Below the pieces are notes generated by a model. That model was given only the letters and a program-made list of their open reading frames with translations. It was not told the origin of the DNA and did not search any database. Made by a program: the position numbers and the translations under genes. A stretch of DNA of 7,129 bases from a virus (Duplodnaviria; Heunggongvirae; Uroviricota; Caudoviricetes): IMG/VR virus record IMGVR_UViG_2671180543_000002; one strand, 5' to 3'. Positions 12 to 7,129 of the stretch are shown piece by piece; positions within the stretch are counted from its first letter, which is position 1; each line of letters opens with the position of its first letter.

Positions 12-257
12 TTAAAAAAAGAACAAATGGTAGTGTCCGCTATTGCCAGTACACCTCAATTCTTTGGCATTTTTTACCTCGTTACGCGCGTCTGTGGCTT
101 TGCCAACGGATACTTCCGCGTGCGCACGAGTGAACCAGTGCGTGGCAACGTCTTCCTCCACAACATGACGGCCTTTAACAAACTCGCGCCGAGAACCGTC
201 GGGAAGCGTGAGCACAAACGGGGTATGTACGTGTATTACTGCATCATTTTTTGCCAT
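12..257 (-). CDS. Hypothetical phage head-module protein (81 aa), first gene downstream of the major capsid gene; function unknown
   Basis: ORF from the track. ATG at 255..257 (minus sense) is preceded by AAGGA about 7 nt upstream. It is co-oriented with and 41 nt downstream of the capsid gene. The stop at 12..14 sits directly on an A7 run (14..20) at the window edge, so the true 3' end is uncertain. Confidence 0.5.
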   Translation of the reverse strand: MAKNDAVIHVHTPFVLTLPDGSRREFVKGRHVVEEDVATHWFTRAHAEVSVGKATDARNEVKNAKELRCTGNSGHYHLFFF

Positions 258-1240: not shown

Positions 1241-1384
1241 TCGTCTGTTCCTTAAATCTTCCAGGAAATTTCTGCATTGCCGTCAGCATCACCGGCACCT
1301 GTGAATTCAGCGTTGGTCAGCACCACGTTTTTGCCACTGACTGACGTGGACATGAATCCACCCAGAGGCACTTTGATGGATTCA

Positions 1385-1741
1385 TCAGTGGAGATCGCCT
1401 TTTTTGATAGTGCTGGCATCAAAATCAGAACCGAGATTAACGGTCACGTAGCCACGCTTCATGGCGTCGCCCGGGAAGTTCTTGCCTGTTCCCACCTGGC
1501 GAACCATGTCCGGCTGCGACGTGGTCGGATAAGGGCGCACGTAGATCCCCTTCACCTTGTCTGCGGTATCACCATCTGCCAGCGGCACGAAAAAACCGTC
1601 ATCATCGTATTTACCAGCCAGGCCATAGGCAGCGAAGGCGTTATCGGATTTAAGGACCACCGGTTCGACGGTTAAGTCCTGCGGGCGAGAGACAGCCCCG
1701 GCAATGCCAACAGGCATCCGGTACAGAAATACATTATTCAT
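1385..1741 (-). CDS. Small head protein, decoration-like (118 aa as called); probably frameshifted, with the coding frame continuing to 1252
   Basis: ORF from the track, 3 nt downstream of the protease/scaffold stop. An A6 run (1400..1405) lies just before the called stop. A different frame stays open and protein-like to a TAA at 1252..1254 that overlaps the capsid SD. Confidence 0.55.
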   Translation of the reverse strand: MNNVFLYRMPVGIAGAVSRPQDLTVEPVVLKSDNAFAAYGLAGKYDDDGFFVPLADGDTADKVKGIYVRPYPTTSQPDMVRQVGTGKNFPGDAMKRGYVTVNLGSDFDASTIKKGDLH

Positions 1742-1744
1742 TTT

Positions 1745-2413
1745 TTACCCTTTACGGTTTGCCCAGAATTCAGCGTTTTGTTTGTTCAGGGAAGCGATAC
1801 TGGTCATGCCCATGTTTAGGCGCTGTGCATCGCCGGTGGTGGCGCGGGTGTTTCGCCCTTTGGCAACCTCAGACACGGCATTAAACGCCATGTCGACCGA
1901 TTGTTTCGGTAATTTGCGGATATCCGCATCACCGACTATCTGGCGAACCAGCGTTTTGTCAGCAGAAGCCAGAACCTCGCGTTTGAACGCGGTCGGTTTC
2001 ATCTTACGGCTCAGATCGATACCCGGAACGATAACTTCGGCACGCCAGGCTGAGTCACCAGTAATCGTGGTTTCCTCTTCATCGTCCTCGCCGTCACCGG
2101 TCGGATTATCGTCAGGCTTATTATCGTTATCGCCCGTGGCATTTCTTTCCAGCTTAGCCAGCAGGGCTTTCAGTAATGTTTTGAGGTCATCATCACTGTC
2201 GCCGGTTGGATCTCCGCCCATCTCTGGTGCTTTGTCCGGTAGTGGTTGCTGCGGGGACAGGTTGATGTTGAGATTAACGCCCTGCGGCAAATCCCCCTCA
2301 TCTCCTGTAACCGATGCGGGAGCCGACTCCACCAGTTCGTTCATGGTGTCGGCATCTCCTGTCTTGATGGCCGCACGCATGCGGTTCCACCAGTTTTTCT
2401 TTTGATTTGCCAT
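1745..2413 (-). CDS. Candidate nested in-frame scaffold protein (222 aa) initiated at the internal ATG 2411..2413 (Met185 of the protease ORF)
   Basis: Internal in-frame ATG preceded on the mRNA strand by GGAGACAGAGACACA (GGAG about 11 nt upstream); it falls exactly where the N-terminal domain ends and the acidic region begins. Inference by analogy to Mu I/Z and lambda C/Nu3. Confidence 0.3.
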   Translation of the reverse strand: MANQKKNWWNRMRAAIKTGDADTMNELVESAPASVTGDEGDLPQGVNLNINLSPQQPLPDKAPEMGGDPTGDSDDDLKTLLKALLAKLERNATGDNDNKPDDNPTGDGEDDEEETTITGDSAWRAEVIVPGIDLSRKMKPTAFKREVLASADKTLVRQIVGDADIRKLPKQSVDMAFNAVSEVAKGRNTRATTGDAQRLNMGMTSIASLNKQNAEFWANRKG

Positions 2414-2965
2414 TGTGTCTCTGTCTCCAATTGCACAACGATTTCCGGCTCTGCCTTTAGGGACAAGAGCCACATGGTTTCCGGTAATATCGACCTGCTC
2501 GGCTTTACCTGGCTCGGTCTGCTCGTACTCCGCGTCATAGCCGCACGACACTTCGCGCAGGCCATCTTCGATAAGCTGAATGGCGCTTTCGTCTTTGACG
2601 ATAAGGTCAGCCAGCATCAAATCAGACTGCTCACCCGTCCCGCGCCGGACATTCTGGAGGTGCCCGACAGCAAGCACTTTCCAGTTCTCGGGATTTACCA
2701 GCCGCACATTCCCGTTTTCATCTTCAGGATGCAGGATCGTGATGCTCATCCCTTCGAATGAGGCAAGCGTGGCCGGATGGAATACCTGCTCAGGAGAACG
2801 CGTGACGACTATTTCAACGAACTTATCGGGTTTCAGTTTTGGCAGGTCATCAGCACCATAGAGCTGCTTACCTGTTCGTCCTATCGGCACGTCTTTGCAC
2901 AGCAACGAGCCGTCAGCCAGGCGGTATCGGGTTTCCCCGAGCCTGGTCTCAAAAAAGTATTTCAT
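1745..2965 (-). CDS. Putative prohead protease / scaffolding protein (406 aa): N-terminal globular domain, acidic low-complexity linker, C-terminal scaffold-like region
   Basis: Position between the MuF-like gene and the capsid gene; strongly acidic D/E/G/T-rich stretch (roughly residues 200..300) typical of scaffold proteins; architecture analogous to Mu I/Z or lambda C/Nu3. Confidence 0.65.
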   Translation of the reverse strand: MKYFFETRLGETRYRLADGSLLCKDVPIGRTGKQLYGADDLPKLKPDKFVEIVVTRSPEQVFHPATLASFEGMSITILHPEDENGNVRLVNPENWKVLAVGHLQNVRRGTGEQSDLMLADLIVKDESAIQLIEDGLREVSCGYDAEYEQTEPGKAEQVDITGNHVALVPKGRAGNRCAIGDRDTMANQKKNWWNRMRAAIKTGDADTMNELVESAPASVTGDEGDLPQGVNLNINLSPQQPLPDKAPEMGGDPTGDSDDDLKTLLKALLAKLERNATGDNDNKPDDNPTGDGEDDEEETTITGDSAWRAEVIVPGIDLSRKMKPTAFKREVLASADKTLVRQIVGDADIRKLPKQSVDMAFNAVSEVAKGRNTRATTGDAQRLNMGMTSIASLNKQNAEFWANRKG

Positions 2966-2968
2966 GGG

Positions 2969-3751
2969 TTATGCTGCCCTTTTCATTGCGAATGGAACGC
3001 GAACAAACACGATCTCTTTATAGCAGCGGCAGTTTGGCAGCTCGCCCGCGTGGCCGGTCATGCCGTCCAAAGTTGGAGGTGAATCCCAGCGGACGAATTT
3101 ACCTTTCATGTGATCGTGGGAATCTCGGACATCGCCATCATCGGCTGTACGCCAAATATAACCATCCGAGCCAATAGCTATCGCTCGGGCCATATCCAGC
3201 GCGCCCGTTGCTCTTCCCAGTTCCGTTCGGGCAATCAGATCGGCCCTAGACTTAGCAACATCGCCGGTAGATGCAATCTCTTTAGCAAACTGCTCCGCCC
3301 GACCACCGGTGACAACAGCCTCTATCGCTTTGTTCTGGATGTCGTACACCCTGTCTGCGGCCTCGAGAGGCAGAGATTTGATGTACTTGACCTGTTCGGC
3401 GATGATGGATTGCATCACCTGGCCCACAGGAGCGCTTTCCACAAGATTGCGGAGCTCGCGACTGATGTTCTTGCTGTGTTGCCGCCAAACTTTCTCGTTC
3501 TGCCGGGTTAGGTCCGCAGTAAAGTTTTCCGCGACCTTTGTCGCCCAGGGGGTGATGATTTCACTGTAACGCTCCAGCGCCGCAATAATTTCCGTGATAC
3601 TGTCATTTGAACCATCGTAGCGACCATTTACGATGTCTCCGACCGCCCTCGCTATCCTGCGTAGGCTGGTTCGATACCGGATTTCCGCCTGACGGCTCCT
3701 GCGGTTCGTCATCAGGTTCGCCGATGCCGGGCGGCGCTTCATCTTCGGCAT
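2969..3751 (-). CDS. Phage head morphogenesis protein, Mu F / SPP1 gp7-like (260 aa)
   Basis: C-terminal region contains ...WRTADDGDVRDSHDHMKGKF...GELPNCRCYKE..., matching my recollection of the conserved VR..H and CRC signature of Mu F-like domains; located between portal and protease. GAGGA SD 8 nt upstream of the ATG at 3749..3751. The start overlaps the portal 3' end by 149 nt. Confidence 0.8.
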   Translation of the reverse strand: MPKMKRRPASANLMTNRRSRQAEIRYRTSLRRIARAVGDIVNGRYDGSNDSITEIIAALERYSEIITPWATKVAENFTADLTRQNEKVWRQHSKNISRELRNLVESAPVGQVMQSIIAEQVKYIKSLPLEAADRVYDIQNKAIEAVVTGGRAEQFAKEIASTGDVAKSRADLIARTELGRATGALDMARAIAIGSDGYIWRTADDGDVRDSHDHMKGKFVRWDSPPTLDGMTGHAGELPNCRCYKEIVFVRVPFAMKRAA

Positions 3752-5069
3752 TCTCGATGTCCTCGTTGGTAATGGATGCCCCTATGCCGGTTACGTCAGA
3801 ATTTTCTCGCAAATCAGTCATAGCGGCTTTCAGTGTCATCAGACCATCACCCAGCGCCGTACTGATTGCGTTGGTGGTGTTTAACGCCACCGTTGAGCGA
3901 TCGACATCAGACATTTGCCAGAGCGGGTTAAACTCAAACGTGAAATCGTCCGGCAGCGGCTTGCCAAGTTCCGAACGATGCATGATGTCCAGTATCCGCC
4001 GCACCGGAAGACGTAAACGCCTCTCCTGCAACGAACTGATGCGATCGTAATAGTTGGCAAGGTCTGCATCACCGGTAGAAAATCCTTTCGGGGACTGTCC
4101 GAACAACCGCACCAGTGGGATACCAACAGCGCCACTAATCTGTTCTGCAAACTGCGAAAGGATGTCATCCAGACCACTGAAGCTGTACTGATGGGTTTCA
4201 AACTTATCCCGCGAGTCCATGAGCGTCATGCCTTCATTACTCTGGAACTGTCGAATCAGGTCGATATTCTTCAGCAACGCTTCATACGCAGGACCACCAA
4301 GTGCGATAAGCTCGCGTAGCTTCTCCACGCTGTAGGTACGCAAATGCGCCTTGTAGACCAGCTGCGCCGCGCCGACAGTAGCGCTGTCGAACGCGGTAAG
4401 ACGATCCCAGATACGCTCTACAACCGACATTCCCCATTCGTTCTCGGTCATCTTCTGCTGAAATGGCAACGTGACGCCATCAAAGCGAATCAGGCGACTG
4501 TGATGAATGCGCCAGGCAGGAATTCCCGTTGCTGTGGTCACCACATCGTAAAACTCAGGTTTACCCAGGTCCGGCCCCATATCTTTAATGCGGCGGGTCA
4601 GTGCCGGGTCGACCATCCAGCGGTCGAGCGGGAGAATCCCCTTAAACTTGCCCTTACCGATGGTTTCGGGTCGCAGCGGGGTCATTGGTGCCTGCCCCTC
4701 AATCATGATGAAACCCACCGCGCCGCCGTAGAGGCGCGACCATTTCAGCACGTCATTCAGCGCATCCCAGATTTGCAACTCATCCAGTTGTGATTCGAGA
4801 ATGCCACGATCTTTTGCATCAATTTCCGAAGTGATGCGAATGCCTTTGCGGGTCATATCATCCGGGATAGCATCGACTGCTTCGCCGATGATCCAGGATG
4901 AACGATAGGACCATTCCACCAGCATGCGGTTACGACTGGTGAAATTAGCCCGGTAGGTGGATGCTGAGTGCTGGTTAGGTGTCTGCATCCCTACTCGGGC
5001 AATAAAATTCTCATAACCATCAGCTGTGGCCTGCACAGTTCGCCGCAGGGCTTGTTTGTTTCGTGCCAT
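3603..5069 (-). CDS. Putative phage portal protein (488 aa) with an acidic, proline-rich C-terminal tail
   Basis: Size and position directly downstream of, and translationally coupled to, the terminase large subunit (ATGA overlap at 5067..5071) and upstream of the MuF-like gene. Family inferred from context. Confidence 0.7.
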   Translation of the reverse strand: MARNKQALRRTVQATADGYENFIARVGMQTPNQHSASTYRANFTSRNRMLVEWSYRSSWIIGEAVDAIPDDMTRKGIRITSEIDAKDRGILESQLDELQIWDALNDVLKWSRLYGGAVGFIMIEGQAPMTPLRPETIGKGKFKGILPLDRWMVDPALTRRIKDMGPDLGKPEFYDVVTTATGIPAWRIHHSRLIRFDGVTLPFQQKMTENEWGMSVVERIWDRLTAFDSATVGAAQLVYKAHLRTYSVEKLRELIALGGPAYEALLKNIDLIRQFQSNEGMTLMDSRDKFETHQYSFSGLDDILSQFAEQISGAVGIPLVRLFGQSPKGFSTGDADLANYYDRISSLQERRLRLPVRRILDIMHRSELGKPLPDDFTFEFNPLWQMSDVDRSTVALNTTNAISTALGDGLMTLKAAMTDLRENSDVTGIGASITNEDIENAEDEAPPGIGEPDDEPQEPSGGNPVSNQPTQDSEGGRRHRKWSLRWFK

Positions 5070-5801
5070 CAGGCCTGTCTCCCCAGCTGTTCCCAGATAT
5101 CCAGCGATGTATCGATTGGCGCGAAGGCCATAATGAATGCATCAGCAACGTTTGGTGACGGTATCTCGCGTTTTGCGAGGTCTTTTTTACTTTCGACCAT
5201 CACACGTCCGTTACGGTCGAAATCACGATGAGGTGTTGTCAGTTCCAGTTTCAGCTTTTCAAGCAACGGACAACGAGAATCTATGCTGATCAGCTCATCC
5301 ACAGGATACTGTTCTCCGTTGTTAATGGCGTTAAACGTATTTCTGAAACGGTCAGCCACCATGCCTGAGCCTTAAGATTTGCGAAAAAGTCTTTGTTGGG
5401 GATGCCGTTGTACTCGTCATCTGGCTCATGCACACCAGCACCGGCGTTAAACCTCTGGTAATTCACACGTCGCGCGTATGCGTTCTCGCTCTTCCGGTCA
5501 GCGTTAATTTCAGAGAATTTAGCACCGGCAGACGCACCAACACCGATAGAGTCGTAAACAATATCTGCTTCACGCTCCAGCGCCGCCTGATAAGTACGCT
5601 GGCAGCTCTTCAGTAATTCATCTTCTTTGGCCTTCCATTCGTCGGCCCAGAAAACAACGGATCCGTGACGGTAAACGTTAGCGCACTTATCTGTACCACT
5701 GTCAGCCACGTCAAAGCCAATACGCTTTCTTCCACTGGGTTCGAAATTTAACGTTTTGTGCGCATCCACTGCGGCTTCTATCCAAGACAGTTTGATGATT
5801 G
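5069..5801 (-). pseudogene. Terminase large subunit, 3' half only (nuclease domain), with an internal frameshift near 5350..5362 and 5' truncation at 5802 by an IS2 end
   Basis: ORF 5290..5829 contains ...RIGFDVADSGTDKCANV..., resembling the RNase H-like nuclease motif of terminase large subunits. ORF 5069..5362, in another frame, looks like the terminase C-terminal end (...ESKKDLAKR..SPNVADAFIMAF). The first 9 codons of the 5290..5829 ORF (MSGNIGANP) are read out of the IS2 terminal repeat. The ATPase half is absent. Confidence 0.8.
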
Positions 5802-5860
5802 CTGGATTTGCCCCTATATTTCCAGACATCTGTTATCACTTAACCCATTACAAGCCCGCT
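5802..5860 (+). mobile_element. Terminal 59 bp of an IS2-like (IS3 family) element, outermost end at 5802, running into the N gap
   Basis: TGGATTTGCCCCTATATTTCCAGACATCTGTTATCACTTAACCCATTACAAGCCCGCT is identical to 6942..7000 and matches my memory of the IS2 right terminal inverted repeat. Confidence 0.75.
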
Positions 5861-5870
5861 NNNNNNNNNN
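5861..5870. other. Run of 10 N: assembly/scaffold gap of unknown true length
   Basis: Literal n characters in the sequence. Confidence 0.99.
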
Positions 5871-6941
5871 AACACCAAAGGCGATGCCATGATTGGCGTC
5901 AAGCAGCCTTTACCAAAAGCAGTTTTAAGAACTCAGCATGACAAAAATAAAGAAGCAATAAGTATCCTGGATTTTGGTGTTATTGATGATGGTGTGACAG
6001 ATAATTACCAGGCAATACAAAATGCTATAGATGCCGTTGCTTCACTACCCTCCGGCGGGGAGCTGTTTATCCCTGCGAGCAACCAAGCGGTGGGGTATAT
6101 TGTTGGATCCACTTTGCTTATTCCTGGCGGTGTTAACATCAGAGGAGTTGGTAAGGCATCGCAACTCCGAGCAAAAAGCGGACTTACAGGATCTGTGTTA
6201 AGGCTGTCTTATGATTCAGACACTATCGGCCGTTATCTGAGAAATATACGAGTAACTGGTAATAACACCTGCAATGGTATTGACACAAACATTACAGCAG
6301 AAGACTCTGTCATCAGACAGGTTTATGGCTGGGTATTTGATAATGTAATGGTGAATGAAGTTGAAACCGCATTATTTAATGCAAGGGCTCTGGCACTCAA
6401 AATTTATAGCATGTCAGGCTGGAACCTGTAGAGTCGGTCTTCACTTTTTAGGCCAGTGCGTAAGTGTTAGTGTCAGCTCCTGCCATTTCAGCAGAGGAAA
6501 TTATTCTGCTGATGAAAGCTTTGGCATCAGGATTCAGCCTCAAACGTATGCGTGGTCGTCAGAGGCAGTTAGGTCAGAAGCAATAATTTTAGACAGTGAG
6601 ACCATGTGCATTGGTTTTAAAAATGCCGTCTATGTTCATGATTGCCTTGATTTGCATATGGAACAACTGGATTTAGATTATTGCGGCTCAACAGGCGTGG
6701 TTATAGAGAATGTAAACGGAGGATTTTCTTTCTCAAACTCATGGATAGCAGCAGATGCCGATGGCACTGAACAATTTACGGGGATATATTTTAGAACGCC
6801 GGCCTCAACGCAGTCACATAAAATTGTCAGTGGTGTTCATATCAACACTGCAAACAAAAACACGGCTGCAAACAATCAAAGTATAGCGATAGAACAGTCG
6901 GCGATCTTCGTCTTTGTAAGTGGTTGTACGTTAACTGGTGA
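5871..6941 (+). pseudogene. Right-handed beta-helix, pectate-lyase-like protein (possible glycan depolymerase or tailspike-type enzyme); frameshifted between 6355 and 6431 and 3'-truncated by the IS2 end at 6942; 5' end may lie in the gap
   Basis: N-terminal ...ISILDFGVIDDGVTDNYQAIQNAIDAVASLPSGGELFIPAS... resembles the signature start of pectate-lyase-3-type beta-helix domains. The reading frame is open from 5871 (ATG at 5889). Two overlapping ORFs in different frames (5889..6431 and 6355..). Everything after 6941 in the second ORF is IS2 sequence. Low GC compared with the phage genes. Confidence 0.55.
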
Positions 6942-7129
6942 TGGATTTGCCCCTATATTTCCAGACATCTGTTATCACTTAACCCATTACAAGCCCGCTG
7001 CCGCAGATATTCCCGTGGCGAGCGATAACCCAGCGCACTATGCGGATGCCATTCGTTATAATGCTCGACCGCCTCTGCAAGGTTCTTTGCTGCCGTTAAC
7101 CCGTCTGGTTTGGGCATGATACTGATGTA
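6942..7129 (-). mobile_element. IS2-like element, right end (partial; the element continues past the window end), with its terminal inverted repeat starting at 6942
   Basis: Same terminal sequence as at 5802..5860, here continuing into the transposase coding sequence. Confidence 0.8.
6953..7129 (-). CDS. insD: IS2 / IS3-family transposase OrfB, 3' end only (5' part outside the window)
   Basis: Minus-strand translation ...[54 protein letters not shown], stop at 6953..6955; the HYNE..HSALGY..P motif is typical of IS3-family integrase C-termini. Confidence 0.7.

What the first reader, a model, noticed from the sequence alone, without database searches (positions are those of the whole stretch)
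1745..2965. Possible nested in-frame scaffold gene inside the protease/scaffold ORF (Mu I/Z or lambda C/Nu3-style)
The 406-aa ORF has an N-terminal globular region of about 180 aa, then an internal Met185 (ATG 2411..2413) with an upstream GGAG, followed by a highly acidic low-complexity stretch and a C-terminal region. This architecture suggests two products from one frame: a full-length protease-scaffold fusion and a shorter scaffold from internal initiation.
Basis: inference. Interest (0 to 1): 0.45.

Follow-up and report, generated by a model that had tools for sequence, protein, structure and literature searches.

The report
Hidden scaffold gene inside phage protease gene
A prophage head-assembly gene of E. 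coli very probably makes two proteins from one reading frame, a rare full-length capsid protease and an abundant shorter scaffold started at an internal ATG: a well-known phage trick that has not been annotated in this large gene family.

Summary
A 406-aa ORF lies on the minus strand (1745..2965). Met185 is at 2413..2411, with GGAG 11 nt upstream.

Comparative evidence for internal initiation is strong:
- 96% of 131 homologs at 35-60% identity have a Met in the variable 10-residue linker after the protease domain. Other windows show about 1-44%.
- In 16 diverged DNA lineages the start codon keeps an SD-like motif even when it moves. One lineage uses GTG.
- Across 92 distinct close sequences, the only long invariant stretch (46 nt) runs from -39 to +7 around this ATG.
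- The Gly180 codon that supplies GGAG is GGA in 92 of 92 sequences.
- The full-length start has a weaker SD and sits 3 nt after the upstream stop codon.

No experiment was possible. This is the lambda C/Nu3, Mu I/Z arrangement in a different protease family, so a new member of a known kind. Interest is moderate.

The parts
1745..2965 (-). Full-length ORF of 406 aa (44.4 kDa), stop codon included: the inferred prohead protease fused to a scaffold-type C-terminus.
   Evidence: PHROG 1961 matches over the full length, and phrog_530 and phrog_12864 are annotated 'head maturation protease'.
2963..2965 (-). Primary ATG of the full-length product. It has a weak SD-like motif (AAGGG, then 11 nt) and lies 3 nt downstream of the TAA stop (2971..2969) of the upstream Mu F-like gene, so translational coupling is likely.
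   Evidence: Anti-SD duplex energy is -4.4 kcal/mol here against -6.4 at the internal start.
2423..2920 (-). DUF2213 domain (residues 16-181), which has the fold of the herpesvirus and T4 gp21 capsid-maturation serine proteases.
2729..2731 (-). Codon of His79, a candidate catalytic residue.
   Evidence: Invariant in 55 sequences at 34-60% identity.
2546..2548 (-). Codon of Ser140, the candidate nucleophile in the motif EVSCGYD.
   Evidence: Invariant in 55 diverse sequences.
2474..2476 (-). Codon of His164 in the motif GNHVALV, a candidate third catalytic residue. The order His-Ser-His matches herpesvirus assemblins (from my own knowledge).
   Evidence: Invariant in 55 diverse sequences.
2407..2452 (-). 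A 46-nt stretch invariant in 92 distinct homologous DNA sequences. It runs from -39 to +7 relative to the A of the internal ATG and is the inferred internal translation-initiation region.
   Evidence: It is the only invariant run of 20 nt or more in the gene. The longest run in 10,000 codon shuffles was 23 nt. Synonymous entropy is zero for codons 172-196.
2425..2428 (-). GGAG Shine-Dalgarno core, formed by the codons of Gly180 and Asp181 (GGA GAC).
   Evidence: The Gly180 codon is GGA in 92 of 92 close sequences. It is GGA or GGG in 18 of 19 lineages, although GGR makes up only 8-45% of Gly codons in those genes.
2411..2413 (-). Internal in-frame ATG (Met185), the inferred start of the nested scaffold gene.
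1745..2413 (-). Nested ORF from Met185 to the stop: 222 aa, 24.0 kDa, pI 4.8. This is the inferred scaffolding protein.
   Evidence: The PB1 and Pa193 homolog supports a scaffold role (PMC11456595). No other scaffold candidate lies between the portal and capsid genes.
2087..2305 (-). Acidic, largely disordered middle region (residues 221-293). It carries four of the seven T-G-D motifs of the C-terminal half, at residues 254, 277 and 289 plus the one straddling its start at 220-222. It also encloses a short amphipathic helix.
2144..2191 (-). Helix at residues 259-274 (LKTLLKALLAKLE). It aligns with the helix of PB1 gp22 that appears to correspond to the Pa193 gp24 'interior helix', which forms a pentamer under the capsid five-fold vertex. 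The correspondence was judged by residue offset and is approximate.
   Evidence: (BLASTP E 0.022, weak), and PMC11456595.
1754..2068 (-). Confidently predicted helical C-terminal domain (residues 300-404). It ends in the conserved motif N-x-x-N-x-x-F-W.
   Evidence: pLDDT above 90; N394, N397, F400 and W401 invariant.

Best explanation
The gene is a nested protease/scaffold pair of an E. coli prophage head-assembly module. The gene order is TerL, portal, Mu F-like, this gene, cement protein, major capsid protein.

Two products are inferred:
- Ribosomes that start at the first ATG (2965..2963) make a 406-aa protein. This start has a weak SD and lies 3 nt after the stop codon of the upstream gene. 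The N-terminal 181 residues of the product are a herpesvirus/T4 gp21-fold serine protease with candidate catalytic residues His79, Ser140 and His164.
- Ribosomes that bind the internal GGAG-N11-ATG site (Met185, 2413..2411) make a 222-aa, 24-kDa acidic, helical protein identical to the C-terminal part of the protease. This is the scaffold.

The two products share a C-terminus. A few protease molecules would therefore co-assemble with many scaffold molecules inside the procapsid. After shell assembly the protease would digest the scaffold and itself.

Shown here:
- the domain architecture;
- the protease fold;
- conservation of the putative catalytic residues;
- conservation of the start codon and SD;
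- purifying selection on synonymous sites around the internal ATG.

Inferred:
- that both proteins are actually made;
- their ratio;
- proteolysis;
- the scaffolding role, which rests on homology to the Pa193 gp24 fragment seen bound to the capsid interior.
For: 1. Domain boundary.
- Pfam DUF2213 ends at residue 181.
- pLDDT dips at residues 181-190, between a beta-rich domain and a helical or disordered tail.

2. Protease fold.
- Foldseek hits in the viral structure library include prohead proteases.
- H79, S140 and H164 are invariant.

3. Linker Met.
- Among 131 cluster representatives at 35-60% identity, 95-96% have a Met in the 10-residue variable window 181-193.
- The figure is about 1-44% for 10-residue windows clear of the linker.
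- The Met's position shifts, but it is retained.

4. DNA of 16 diverged lineages.
- Each linker start codon has an SD-like purine motif 5-11 nt upstream.
- Where the Met lies about 10 codons further downstream, a new AAGGAGA motif accompanies it (L151, L154, L156).
- L163 has GTG after GGAGAT-N6.
- Anti-SD energies fall in the top 0.5-27% of in-frame positions, Fisher p 6e-8.

5. Synonymous constraint.
- Codon entropy is zero for codons 172-196.
- A 46-nt invariant run spans -39 to +7 around the ATG in 92 distinct sequences. The permutation maximum was 23 nt.

6. Codon control.
- Gly180 is GGA in 92 of 92 sequences.
- The Gly codons of the seven other x-G-D motifs in the same gene vary.
- Gly180 is GGR in 18 of 19 lineages. 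The exception has its own SD further downstream.

7. Relative strength of the two starts.
- The internal SD is stronger than the primary SD in 15 of 16 lineages.
- The primary start abuts the upstream stop codon.
- mRNA around the internal start is unusually unstructured.

8. More distant family members. PB1, S1249, Magia, GZ7 and pKp383 all have a linker Met. It is preceded by an SD-like motif in the three where that was scored (PB1, S1249, GZ7).

9. Scaffold role.
- PB1 gp22 is a DUF2213 protein.
- Residues 286-326 of its Pa193 homolog gp24 form a helix-turn-helix pentamer on the capsid interior (PMC11456595).
- Our helix at 259-274 aligns with that region.
- The module contains no other scaffold gene.
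Against: - There is no direct evidence (Ribo-seq, N-terminal proteomics, western blot) for a 24-kDa product in this or any DUF2213 phage in the literature I could search.
- The GGAG-to-ATG spacing of 11 nt is long.
- The SD is partly encoded by the conserved I-G-D peptide, so part of its conservation is protein-level.
- The compared lineages are not fully independent, so the p-values are optimistic.
- The invariant stretch reaches further upstream (to -39) than a minimal initiation site needs.
- One distant subfamily lacks a linker Met (Chaseviridae PYps23T gp55).
- The alignment to the Pa193 scaffold helix is weak (E 0.022).
- P2 gpO shows that a protease-scaffold fusion can work as a single translation product.
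- The prophage in this window looks defective, so the element may not be expressed in this particular strain.
Confidence: 0.78

Rival explanations
1. The gene makes a single product, a protease-scaffold fusion of the P2 gpO type. Only the 406-aa protein is translated. It acts as both scaffold and protease and removes its own scaffold part by autoproteolysis. The linker Met and the GGAG would be incidental or conserved for protein-level reasons.
For: - Every database record annotates a single CDS.
- The GGAG is encoded by the conserved I-G-D peptide.
- P2 gpO is a precedent for a single-product fusion (cited in preprint 10.64898/2026.09.13.751334).
- The Pa193 authors treated gp24 as one 51.8-kDa protein (PMC11456595).
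Against: This reading does not explain several observations:
- a residue as rare as Met is kept in 96% of otherwise variable linkers while its position drifts;
- GTG replaces it in L163;
- an SD reappears next to relocated Mets;
- synonymous sites are frozen only here;
- Gly180 is always GGA while other x-G-D glycines vary.

Stoichiometry also argues against it. Hundreds of active protease domains per procapsid would be unusual (my own knowledge of lambda, Mu and HSV).
Confidence: 0.12
2. The nucleotide-invariant stretch is some other DNA or RNA element that happens to coincide with the domain boundary. Candidates are an internal promoter for a separate scaffold mRNA (as for HSV UL26.5), a regulatory RNA hairpin, or a recombination junction between exchangeable protease and scaffold modules. 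The Met itself need not be used as a start.
For: - The invariance extends to -39, more than an SD plus ATG requires.
- In the window sequence a hairpin that pairs the SD and the AUG is predicted, z = -2.3.
- Phage mosaic joints often lie at domain boundaries (my own knowledge).
Against: - No sigma-70-like promoter lies near the site.
- No RNA structure is conserved across 16 lineages, and the SD and AUG are mostly predicted to be accessible.
- A recombination joint does not predict the linker Met, the GTG substitute or SD co-movement in lineages down to 35% identity.
- An internal promoter would still imply a nested scaffold gene.
Confidence: 0.05
3. Internal initiation is real, but the 222-aa product is not the assembly scaffold. 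It could be, for example, an inhibitor or chaperone of the protease, or an internal or ejection protein. Scaffolding would be provided by the major capsid protein itself or by another gene.
For: - The C-terminal half matches no Pfam or NCBIfam family.
- In Pa193 the fragment persists in mature virions, which is atypical for a scaffold (PMC11456595).
Against: - The capsid protein is only 313 aa and has no delta-like N-terminal extension.
- No other unassigned gene lies between the portal and capsid genes apart from the cement protein.
- The helical-plus-acidic composition and the capsid-interior binding of the Pa193 homolog fit a scaffold (PMC11456595).
Confidence: 0.05

Closest known systems
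Phage Mu genes I (protease) and Z (scaffold), including the Pseudomonas Mu-like phages such as PaMx73 gene 27
   Same: [quoted passage not shown] PMC4378225 describes the internal sites as lying at the same relative positions in the two genes (Val177 in PaMx73).
- The gene sits between a Mu F-like head-morphogenesis gene and the decoration and capsid genes.
   Different: - No sequence membership: only DUF2213 matched in Pfam at E<=10.
- The portal and capsid proteins belong to other families (PF06381, PF09950).
Phage lambda genes C (protease) and Nu3 (scaffold)
   Same: A nested, in-frame, C-terminally co-terminal scaffold lies within the protease gene. The products are a few protease molecules and many scaffold molecules (my own knowledge; cited as a precedent in preprint 10.64898/2026.09.13.751334).
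   Different: - Lambda C is a ClpP/SppA-type (S49) protease with an unrelated fold (my own knowledge).
- Here the fold is that of T4 gp21 and herpesvirus assemblin.
Herpesvirus UL26 (assemblin precursor) and UL26.5 (scaffold); also OsHV-1
   Same: - The scaffold is the in-frame C-terminal part of the protease precursor (PMC11565193; preprint 10.64898/2026.09.13.751334).
   Different: - The herpesvirus scaffold comes from a separate promoter and transcript, not from an internal ribosome-binding site on the same mRNA (my own knowledge).
- Sequence identity is only 17-20%.
Haloferax tailed virus 1 gp17 / gp17.5
   Same: [quoted passage not shown] The architecture is also a globular N-terminal domain plus a helical or disordered C-terminal domain.
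   Different: - It is not a DUF2213 protein: no Pfam hit and hhalign probability 0.4%.
- Its N-terminal domain is 292 aa rather than 184 aa.
- It uses the archaeal translation apparatus.
Phage P2 gpO
   Same: A protease domain and a scaffold domain are encoded in one reading frame.
   Different: gpO is reported to be made as a single protein that cleaves itself, as summarised. Here the comparative data indicate a separate internal start.
Pseudomonas phage Pa193 gp24 / PB1 gp22
   Same: - A true family member: PB1 gp22 matches DUF2213 at E 5.5e-29.
- The synteny is the same.
- It has a linker Met with a GAGGG motif upstream.
- A C-terminal helix-turn-helix was seen bound under the capsid five-fold vertices (PMC11456595).
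   Different: - Full-length identity is low. Profile alignment succeeds only over the protease domain.
- The authors described it only as a putative scaffold and noted neither a protease domain nor an internal start.

Membership tests
Pfam DUF2213 (PF09979) | HMM score above the curated gathering threshold | tested here: met
   141.9 bits against a cut-off of 22, E 2.5e-41, residues 16-181.
Herpesvirus / T4 gp21-type capsid-maturation serine proteases (MEROPS clan SH, from my own knowledge) | Shared three-dimensional fold | tested here: met
   [not shown]
Herpesvirus / T4 gp21-type capsid-maturation serine proteases | Conserved Ser nucleophile and His general base (plus a third residue) in the order His...Ser...His | tested here: inconclusive
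   H79, S140 and H164 are invariant in 55 sequences at 34-60% identity. Their spatial equivalence to the catalytic residues of gp21 or assemblin could not be checked, because the tools return no coordinates or residue-level structural alignment.
Herpesvirus / T4 gp21-type capsid-maturation serine proteases | Sequence membership in a curated protease family (S21, S77, S78 or S80 Pfam models) | tested here: not met
   Pfam scan at E<=10 returned only DUF2213. NCBIfam returned nothing. PDB sequence search returned no hit at E<=1.
Herpesvirus / T4 gp21-type capsid-maturation serine proteases | Proteolytic activity on capsid or scaffold proteins | not testable with these tools
   This needs biochemistry.
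Nested protease/scaffold gene pairs (lambda C/Nu3, Mu I/Z type) | An in-frame start codon at the boundary between the protease domain and the C-terminal part, conserved among relatives | tested here: met
   Met185 is invariant in close relatives. A linker Met is present in 95-96% of 131 diverged cluster representatives. L163 has GTG instead.
Nested protease/scaffold gene pairs (lambda C/Nu3, Mu I/Z type) | A ribosome-binding site upstream of the internal start, under selection | tested here: met
   - SD-like motifs are present in 16 of 16 lineages, Fisher p 6e-8.
- A 46-nt invariant run with zero synonymous entropy surrounds the ATG.
- The GGA codon is fixed.
Nested protease/scaffold gene pairs (lambda C/Nu3, Mu I/Z type) | A separate C-terminal polypeptide is actually produced, in excess over the full-length protein | not testable with these tools
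   Only indirect evidence is available: the internal SD is stronger than the primary SD in 15 of 16 lineages, and mRNA structure is weak at the internal start.
Nested protease/scaffold gene pairs (lambda C/Nu3, Mu I/Z type) | The C-terminal product acts as the scaffold, and the module has no other scaffold gene | tested here: inconclusive
   - Synteny shows no other candidate.
- The homolog Pa193 gp24 binds the capsid interior (PMC11456595).
- The function of this protein has not been tested.
Mu-like prophage protease I and lambda C (S49) sequence families | HMM match to the family model | tested here: not met
   No Pfam hit other than DUF2213 at E<=10.
P2 gpO-type single-product protease-scaffold fusion | Only one translation product, with the scaffold part released by autoproteolysis alone | not testable with these tools
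   The comparative signals for an internal start argue against this, but the products themselves were not observed.

The most novel reading that the evidence does not exclude
The nested scaffold gene may be a family-wide, unannotated feature of DUF2213 head modules. The family has more than 6,000 clusters at 50% identity, spread across many phage groups.

Two further layers are possible and untested:
- The invariant block is unusually long (46 nt at the nucleotide level, about 75 nt at synonymous sites). It may be a dedicated ribosome-loading or ratio-setting element rather than a plain SD.
- The T/I-x-D motifs repeat seven times in the scaffold half, and D181, D204 and D304 are conserved across the family. 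These may be the cleavage code of a new branch of herpesvirus-fold proteases with Asp at the P1 position, including a site (I-G-D181) that separates the protease from the scaffold.
Probability: 0.25. Interest if true: 0.55.

Novelty: new member of a known kind. Interest (0 to 1): 0.42.

Why it matters
- **Function for a DUF.** The result gives a working function to a widespread domain of unknown function. DUF2213 would be a capsid-maturation protease of the herpesvirus/T4 gp21 fold. One paper even discussed it as an 'essential bacterial domain' (PMC8770471).
- **A missing gene.** It predicts a gene absent from every annotated record examined: phage GenBank records and PGAP-annotated E. coli genomes. 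In this module type, the scaffolding protein would be the nested 222-aa product.
- **Structural work.** It bears on the cryo-EM study of Pbunavirus therapeutic phages, where Pa193 gp24 was interpreted as a single 52-kDa scaffold.
- **Evolution.** It adds another independent lineage to the nested protease/scaffold strategy shared by bacterial, archaeal and eukaryotic members of the HK97-fold virus realm.
- **Method.** The synonymous-constraint signature is a reusable way to find nested starts.
- **Limit.** None of this overturns current understanding.

Tried and rejected
- **RNA structure.** In the window sequence a hairpin pairing the SD and AUG is predicted (z -2.3). RNAalifold on 16 sequences, and single folds of 16 lineages, show no conserved structure over the SD or AUG. 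It was not adopted as part of the mechanism.
- **Internal promoter or terminator.** None lies near residue 185.
- **Overlapping alternative-frame ORF.** A 74-aa ORF at 2341..2565 on the minus strand could in principle cause the synonymous constraint. I rejected this because the constraint covers only about 46-75 nt of its 225 nt.
- **Met208 as the internal start.** It has AGGAGA upstream (-7.4). However, the position is Leu, Met or Phe in homologs and synonymous variation there is high.
- **T-G-D repeats as a nucleotide-level (SD-like) repeat.** Rejected, because their Gly codons vary among GGC, GGT and GGA.
- **Sequence homology to solved structures.** No hit.
- **NCBIfam.** No hit.
- **HFTV1 gp17 as a family member.** Rejected.
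- **Scan of genome contigs with the diverse alignment.** It failed because no conserved stretch was suitable, so the DNA analysis relies on IMG/VR loci and GenBank phages.
- **Literature searches.** Searches for DUF2213/PF09979 and for protease-scaffold nesting in this family found nothing specific. Liu & Mushegian 2004 is not held.
- **P0144.** This database protein starts exactly at the linker Met. I did not count it as evidence, because it may be a gene-caller artefact on a truncated contig.
Full report
**What is there**

The window carries, on the minus strand, part of a tailed-phage head module:
- a terminase large-subunit fragment (5290-5829);
- a portal gene (3603-5069, PF06381);
- a Mu F-like head-morphogenesis gene (2969-3751, PF04233);
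- the ORF in question (1745-2965, 406 aa);
- a cement/decoration gene (1385-1741, PF23982 and PF22758);
- a major capsid gene (299-1240, PF09950).

The region is 95% identical to Escherichia phages of the vB_EcoM-689R2 group. It is 79-85% identical to Citrobacter phage Omnitron, Salmonella phage SEN34 (Brunovirus) and Hafnia phage yong1. The ORF occurs in 339 of 5,426 complete E. coli genomes, always on the chromosome, so it is a prophage gene. Every record annotates it as one CDS, either 'DUF2213 domain-containing protein' or hypothetical.

**Check of the observation**

- Met185 is encoded by the ATG at 2413..2411 on the minus strand.
- The upstream sequence reads TTGGAGACAGAGACACA-ATG, so GGAG lies at 2428..2425 with an 11-nt spacer.
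- Pfam DUF2213 covers residues 16-181 (E 2.5e-41).
- An AlphaFold2 model was built on an alignment of 55 homologs at 34-60% identity.
  - Residues 1-180: a beta-rich domain with pLDDT 95-98.
  - Residues 181-190: a confidence dip.
  - Residues 182-213: helices.
  - Residues 221-258 and 275-293: disordered acidic segments flanking a helix at 259-274.
  - Residues 300-404: a confident helical domain.
- Residues 243-300 are 33% Asp+Glu.

**What the two halves are**

The N-terminal domain:
- Foldseek against predicted viral structures returns DUF2213 proteins and proteins named prohead or capsid-maturation protease.
- PHROGs labels related families 'head maturation protease'.
- His79, Ser140 and His164 are invariant across the 55 diverse sequences. 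Their order, His-Ser-His, is that of herpesvirus assemblins (my own knowledge).
- By sequence the protein belongs only to DUF2213. No S21, S77, S78, Mu-like or S49 model matched at E<=10, and no PDB sequence matched.

The C-terminal half:
- It has no Pfam or NCBIfam family.
- PB1 gp22 is a bona fide DUF2213 protein in the same gene order.
- Its close relative Pa193 gp24 was identified by cryo-EM. Residues 286-326 form a pentameric helix-turn-helix bound to the capsid interior at the five-fold vertices, and the authors proposed it as the scaffold (PMC11456595).
- Our helix at 259-274 (LKTLLKALLAKLE) aligns with the corresponding PB1 helix (ELISQVKAILARLEG), though weakly at E 0.022. The mapping from PB1 to Pa193 numbering is approximate.
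- The 313-aa capsid protein has no N-terminal scaffolding extension, and the module has no other scaffold candidate.

**Is there an internal start?**

Five independent comparative tests all point the same way.

1. Linker Met.
   - An exhaustive HMMER search found 6,186 clusters at 50% identity.
   - In an alignment of 131 full-length representatives, the linker after the conserved R-[AC]-G-x-x-C-[AS]-I-x-D motif varies in sequence and length.
   - 95-96% of the proteins nevertheless have a Met within the 10-residue window 181-193.
   - The figure is about 1-44% for 10-residue windows clear of the linker.
   - The Met is typically followed by A, T, S or K and then by lysines (MAKK, MTKK, MSKK).

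2. SD motifs in diverged DNA (34-67% identity, IMG/VR loci).
   - Each linker start codon is preceded by a purine-rich SD-like motif.
   - Where the Met lies 2-5 codons after I-G-D, the motif comes from the I-G-D codons themselves (ATT GGA GAY, ATA GGG GAT).
   - Where the Met lies about 10 codons further on, a new AAGGAGA sits 6-8 nt upstream (L151, L154, L156).
   - L157, L159, L160 and L162 have their own motifs.
   - L163, which lacks a Met, has GGAGAT-N6-GTG.
   - Anti-SD duplex energies are in the top 0.5-27% of all in-frame positions of the respective genes, Fisher p 6e-8. The lineages are not fully independent.

3. Synonymous constraint.
   - Among 92 distinct DNA sequences at about 80% or more protein identity, normalised synonymous codon entropy averages 0.2-0.4 along the gene.
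   - It is exactly zero for codons 172-196.
   - The longest nucleotide-invariant run is 46 nt (gene nt 514-559, window 2407-2452), from -39 to +7 around the ATG.
   - No other run reaches 20 nt, and 10,000 codon shuffles never exceeded 23 nt.

4. Codon control.
   - The Gly180 codon that provides GGAG is GGA in 92 of 92 sequences.
   - The glycines of the seven other x-G-D motifs in the same gene use GGC, GGT and GGA with synonymous variation.
   - Across 19 lineages the site is GGA or GGG in 18, although GGR is only 8-45% of Gly codons in those genes.
   - The exception (L159, GGC) has its start 12 codons downstream with a separate SD.

5. Relative strength of the two starts.
   - The primary start has a weaker SD (-4.4 against -6.4 kcal/mol here).
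   - The internal SD is stronger in 15 of 16 lineages.
   - The primary start lies 3 nt after the TAA of the upstream gene.
   - The 60 nt around the internal start fold less stably than most windows of the gene, at a median around the 10th percentile.

More remote family members also have a linker Met: PB1, Aggregatibacter phage S1249, Burkholderia phage Magia, and Klebsiella phages GZ7 and pKp383. It has an SD-like motif upstream in the three where that was scored (PB1, S1249 and GZ7). A Chaseviridae member does not have one.

**Mechanism proposed**

Low-level, probably coupled, translation from the first ATG would give the 44-kDa protease with a scaffold-type tail. Efficient internal initiation at Met185 would give the 24-kDa scaffold. 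The shared C-terminus would take the protease into the assembling procapsid, where the protease then removes the scaffold.

The fold, the residue conservation and the selection on the initiation site are shown. The existence and ratio of the two proteins, the proteolysis and the scaffolding role are inferred.

**Rivals**

- A single-product fusion of the P2 gpO type cannot explain the drifting-but-retained Met, the GTG substitute, the co-moving SD or the frozen synonymous sites. I give it about 0.12.
- A different nucleotide element (promoter, RNA structure or recombination joint) has little support. There is no promoter motif and no conserved structure. However, the invariance extends further upstream than a minimal initiation site needs, and this remains unexplained.
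- A non-scaffold role for the nested product cannot be excluded but is less economical.

**Comparison with known systems**

The arrangement is the one known from Mu I/Z (PMC4378225), lambda C/Nu3 and herpesvirus UL26/UL26.5. It was recently shown by Ribo-seq in the archaeal virus HFTV1 (preprint 10.64898/2026.09.13.751334).

This gene is not a sequence member of any of those protease families. HFTV1 gp17 is not a DUF2213 protein. Structurally the protease is closest to T4 gp21 and the assemblins. I found no publication or database record describing a nested scaffold in DUF2213 genes (annotations).

**Verdict**

It is a new member of a known kind. It is useful for annotation and for interpreting structural work on related therapeutic phages, but it would not surprise a specialist. 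Interest is 0.42.

Noticed in passing
window 1252-1741 (- strand): The cement/decoration gene carries a 17-nt deletion relative to vB_EcoM-689R2. The deletion shifts the frame, so the ORF is 118 aa instead of about 168 aa, and the remainder appears as a separate 56-aa ORF (1252-1422) with a weak Phage_cement match.
   Followed up: yes
window 5069-5890 and 6939-7129: - The terminase large subunit is only a C-terminal fragment, and it is split over two reading frames (5290-5829 and 5069-5362).
- It ends in a 61-nt sequence (5800-5860) that recurs at 6939-6999, next to an rve_3 transposase fragment (6953-7117, minus strand), with a run of N just after 5860.
- This looks like an IS end plus an assembly gap. 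The prophage in this window is probably defective or the sequence is a scaffold join.
   Followed up: partly
window 5889-7119 (+ strand): Two overlapping ORFs lie between the N gap and the IS end. The first has a pectate-lyase-like (PF12708) N-terminal match, typical of a tailspike or depolymerase. They are unrelated to the head module and appear frameshifted.
   Followed up: partly
window 1745-2413 (- strand); residues 202, 220, 254, 277, 289, 302, 377 (T-G-D) and 179-181 (I-G-D): - T-G-D occurs seven times in the 222-aa C-terminal half, against 0.14 expected from shuffles. These motifs are invariant or nearly so in close homologs, while the sequence between them varies and even duplicates.
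- T-x-D tripeptides (TKD, TAD, TGD) are among the commonest across the family.
- D181, D204 and D304 are conserved in distant homologs.
- These may be protease cleavage sites with Asp at the P1 position. This is untested.
   Followed up: partly
proteins P0001 and P0004 (homologs; alignment A1 columns 232-271 and 327-365): Some close homologs carry tandem in-frame duplications of 39-40 residues inside the acidic, T-G-D-rich region. This shows that the segment tolerates length changes, as expected for a flexible scaffold linker.
   Followed up: no
protein P0197 (263 aa): This homolog has the protease domain followed only by two copies of the extreme C-terminal motif (INKRNAEFW), with no scaffold body. 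The conserved N-x-x-N-x-x-F-W tail (residues 394-401 here) may therefore be the capsid-targeting peptide, and some phages may encode the scaffold separately.
   Followed up: no
window 2342-2344 (Met208, - strand): A second in-frame ATG, 23 codons downstream of Met185, also has a good AGGAGA motif upstream (from a T-G-D codon triplet). The position is not conserved as Met, and the surrounding synonymous sites vary freely. It may still give a minor product in this particular phage.
   Followed up: partly
window 2969-3751 (- strand): The Mu F-like gene reads as 260 aa from the first ATG here, but it is annotated as 176-202 aa in related phages (SEN34, yong1, 689R2). Its true start is therefore uncertain.
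   Followed up: no
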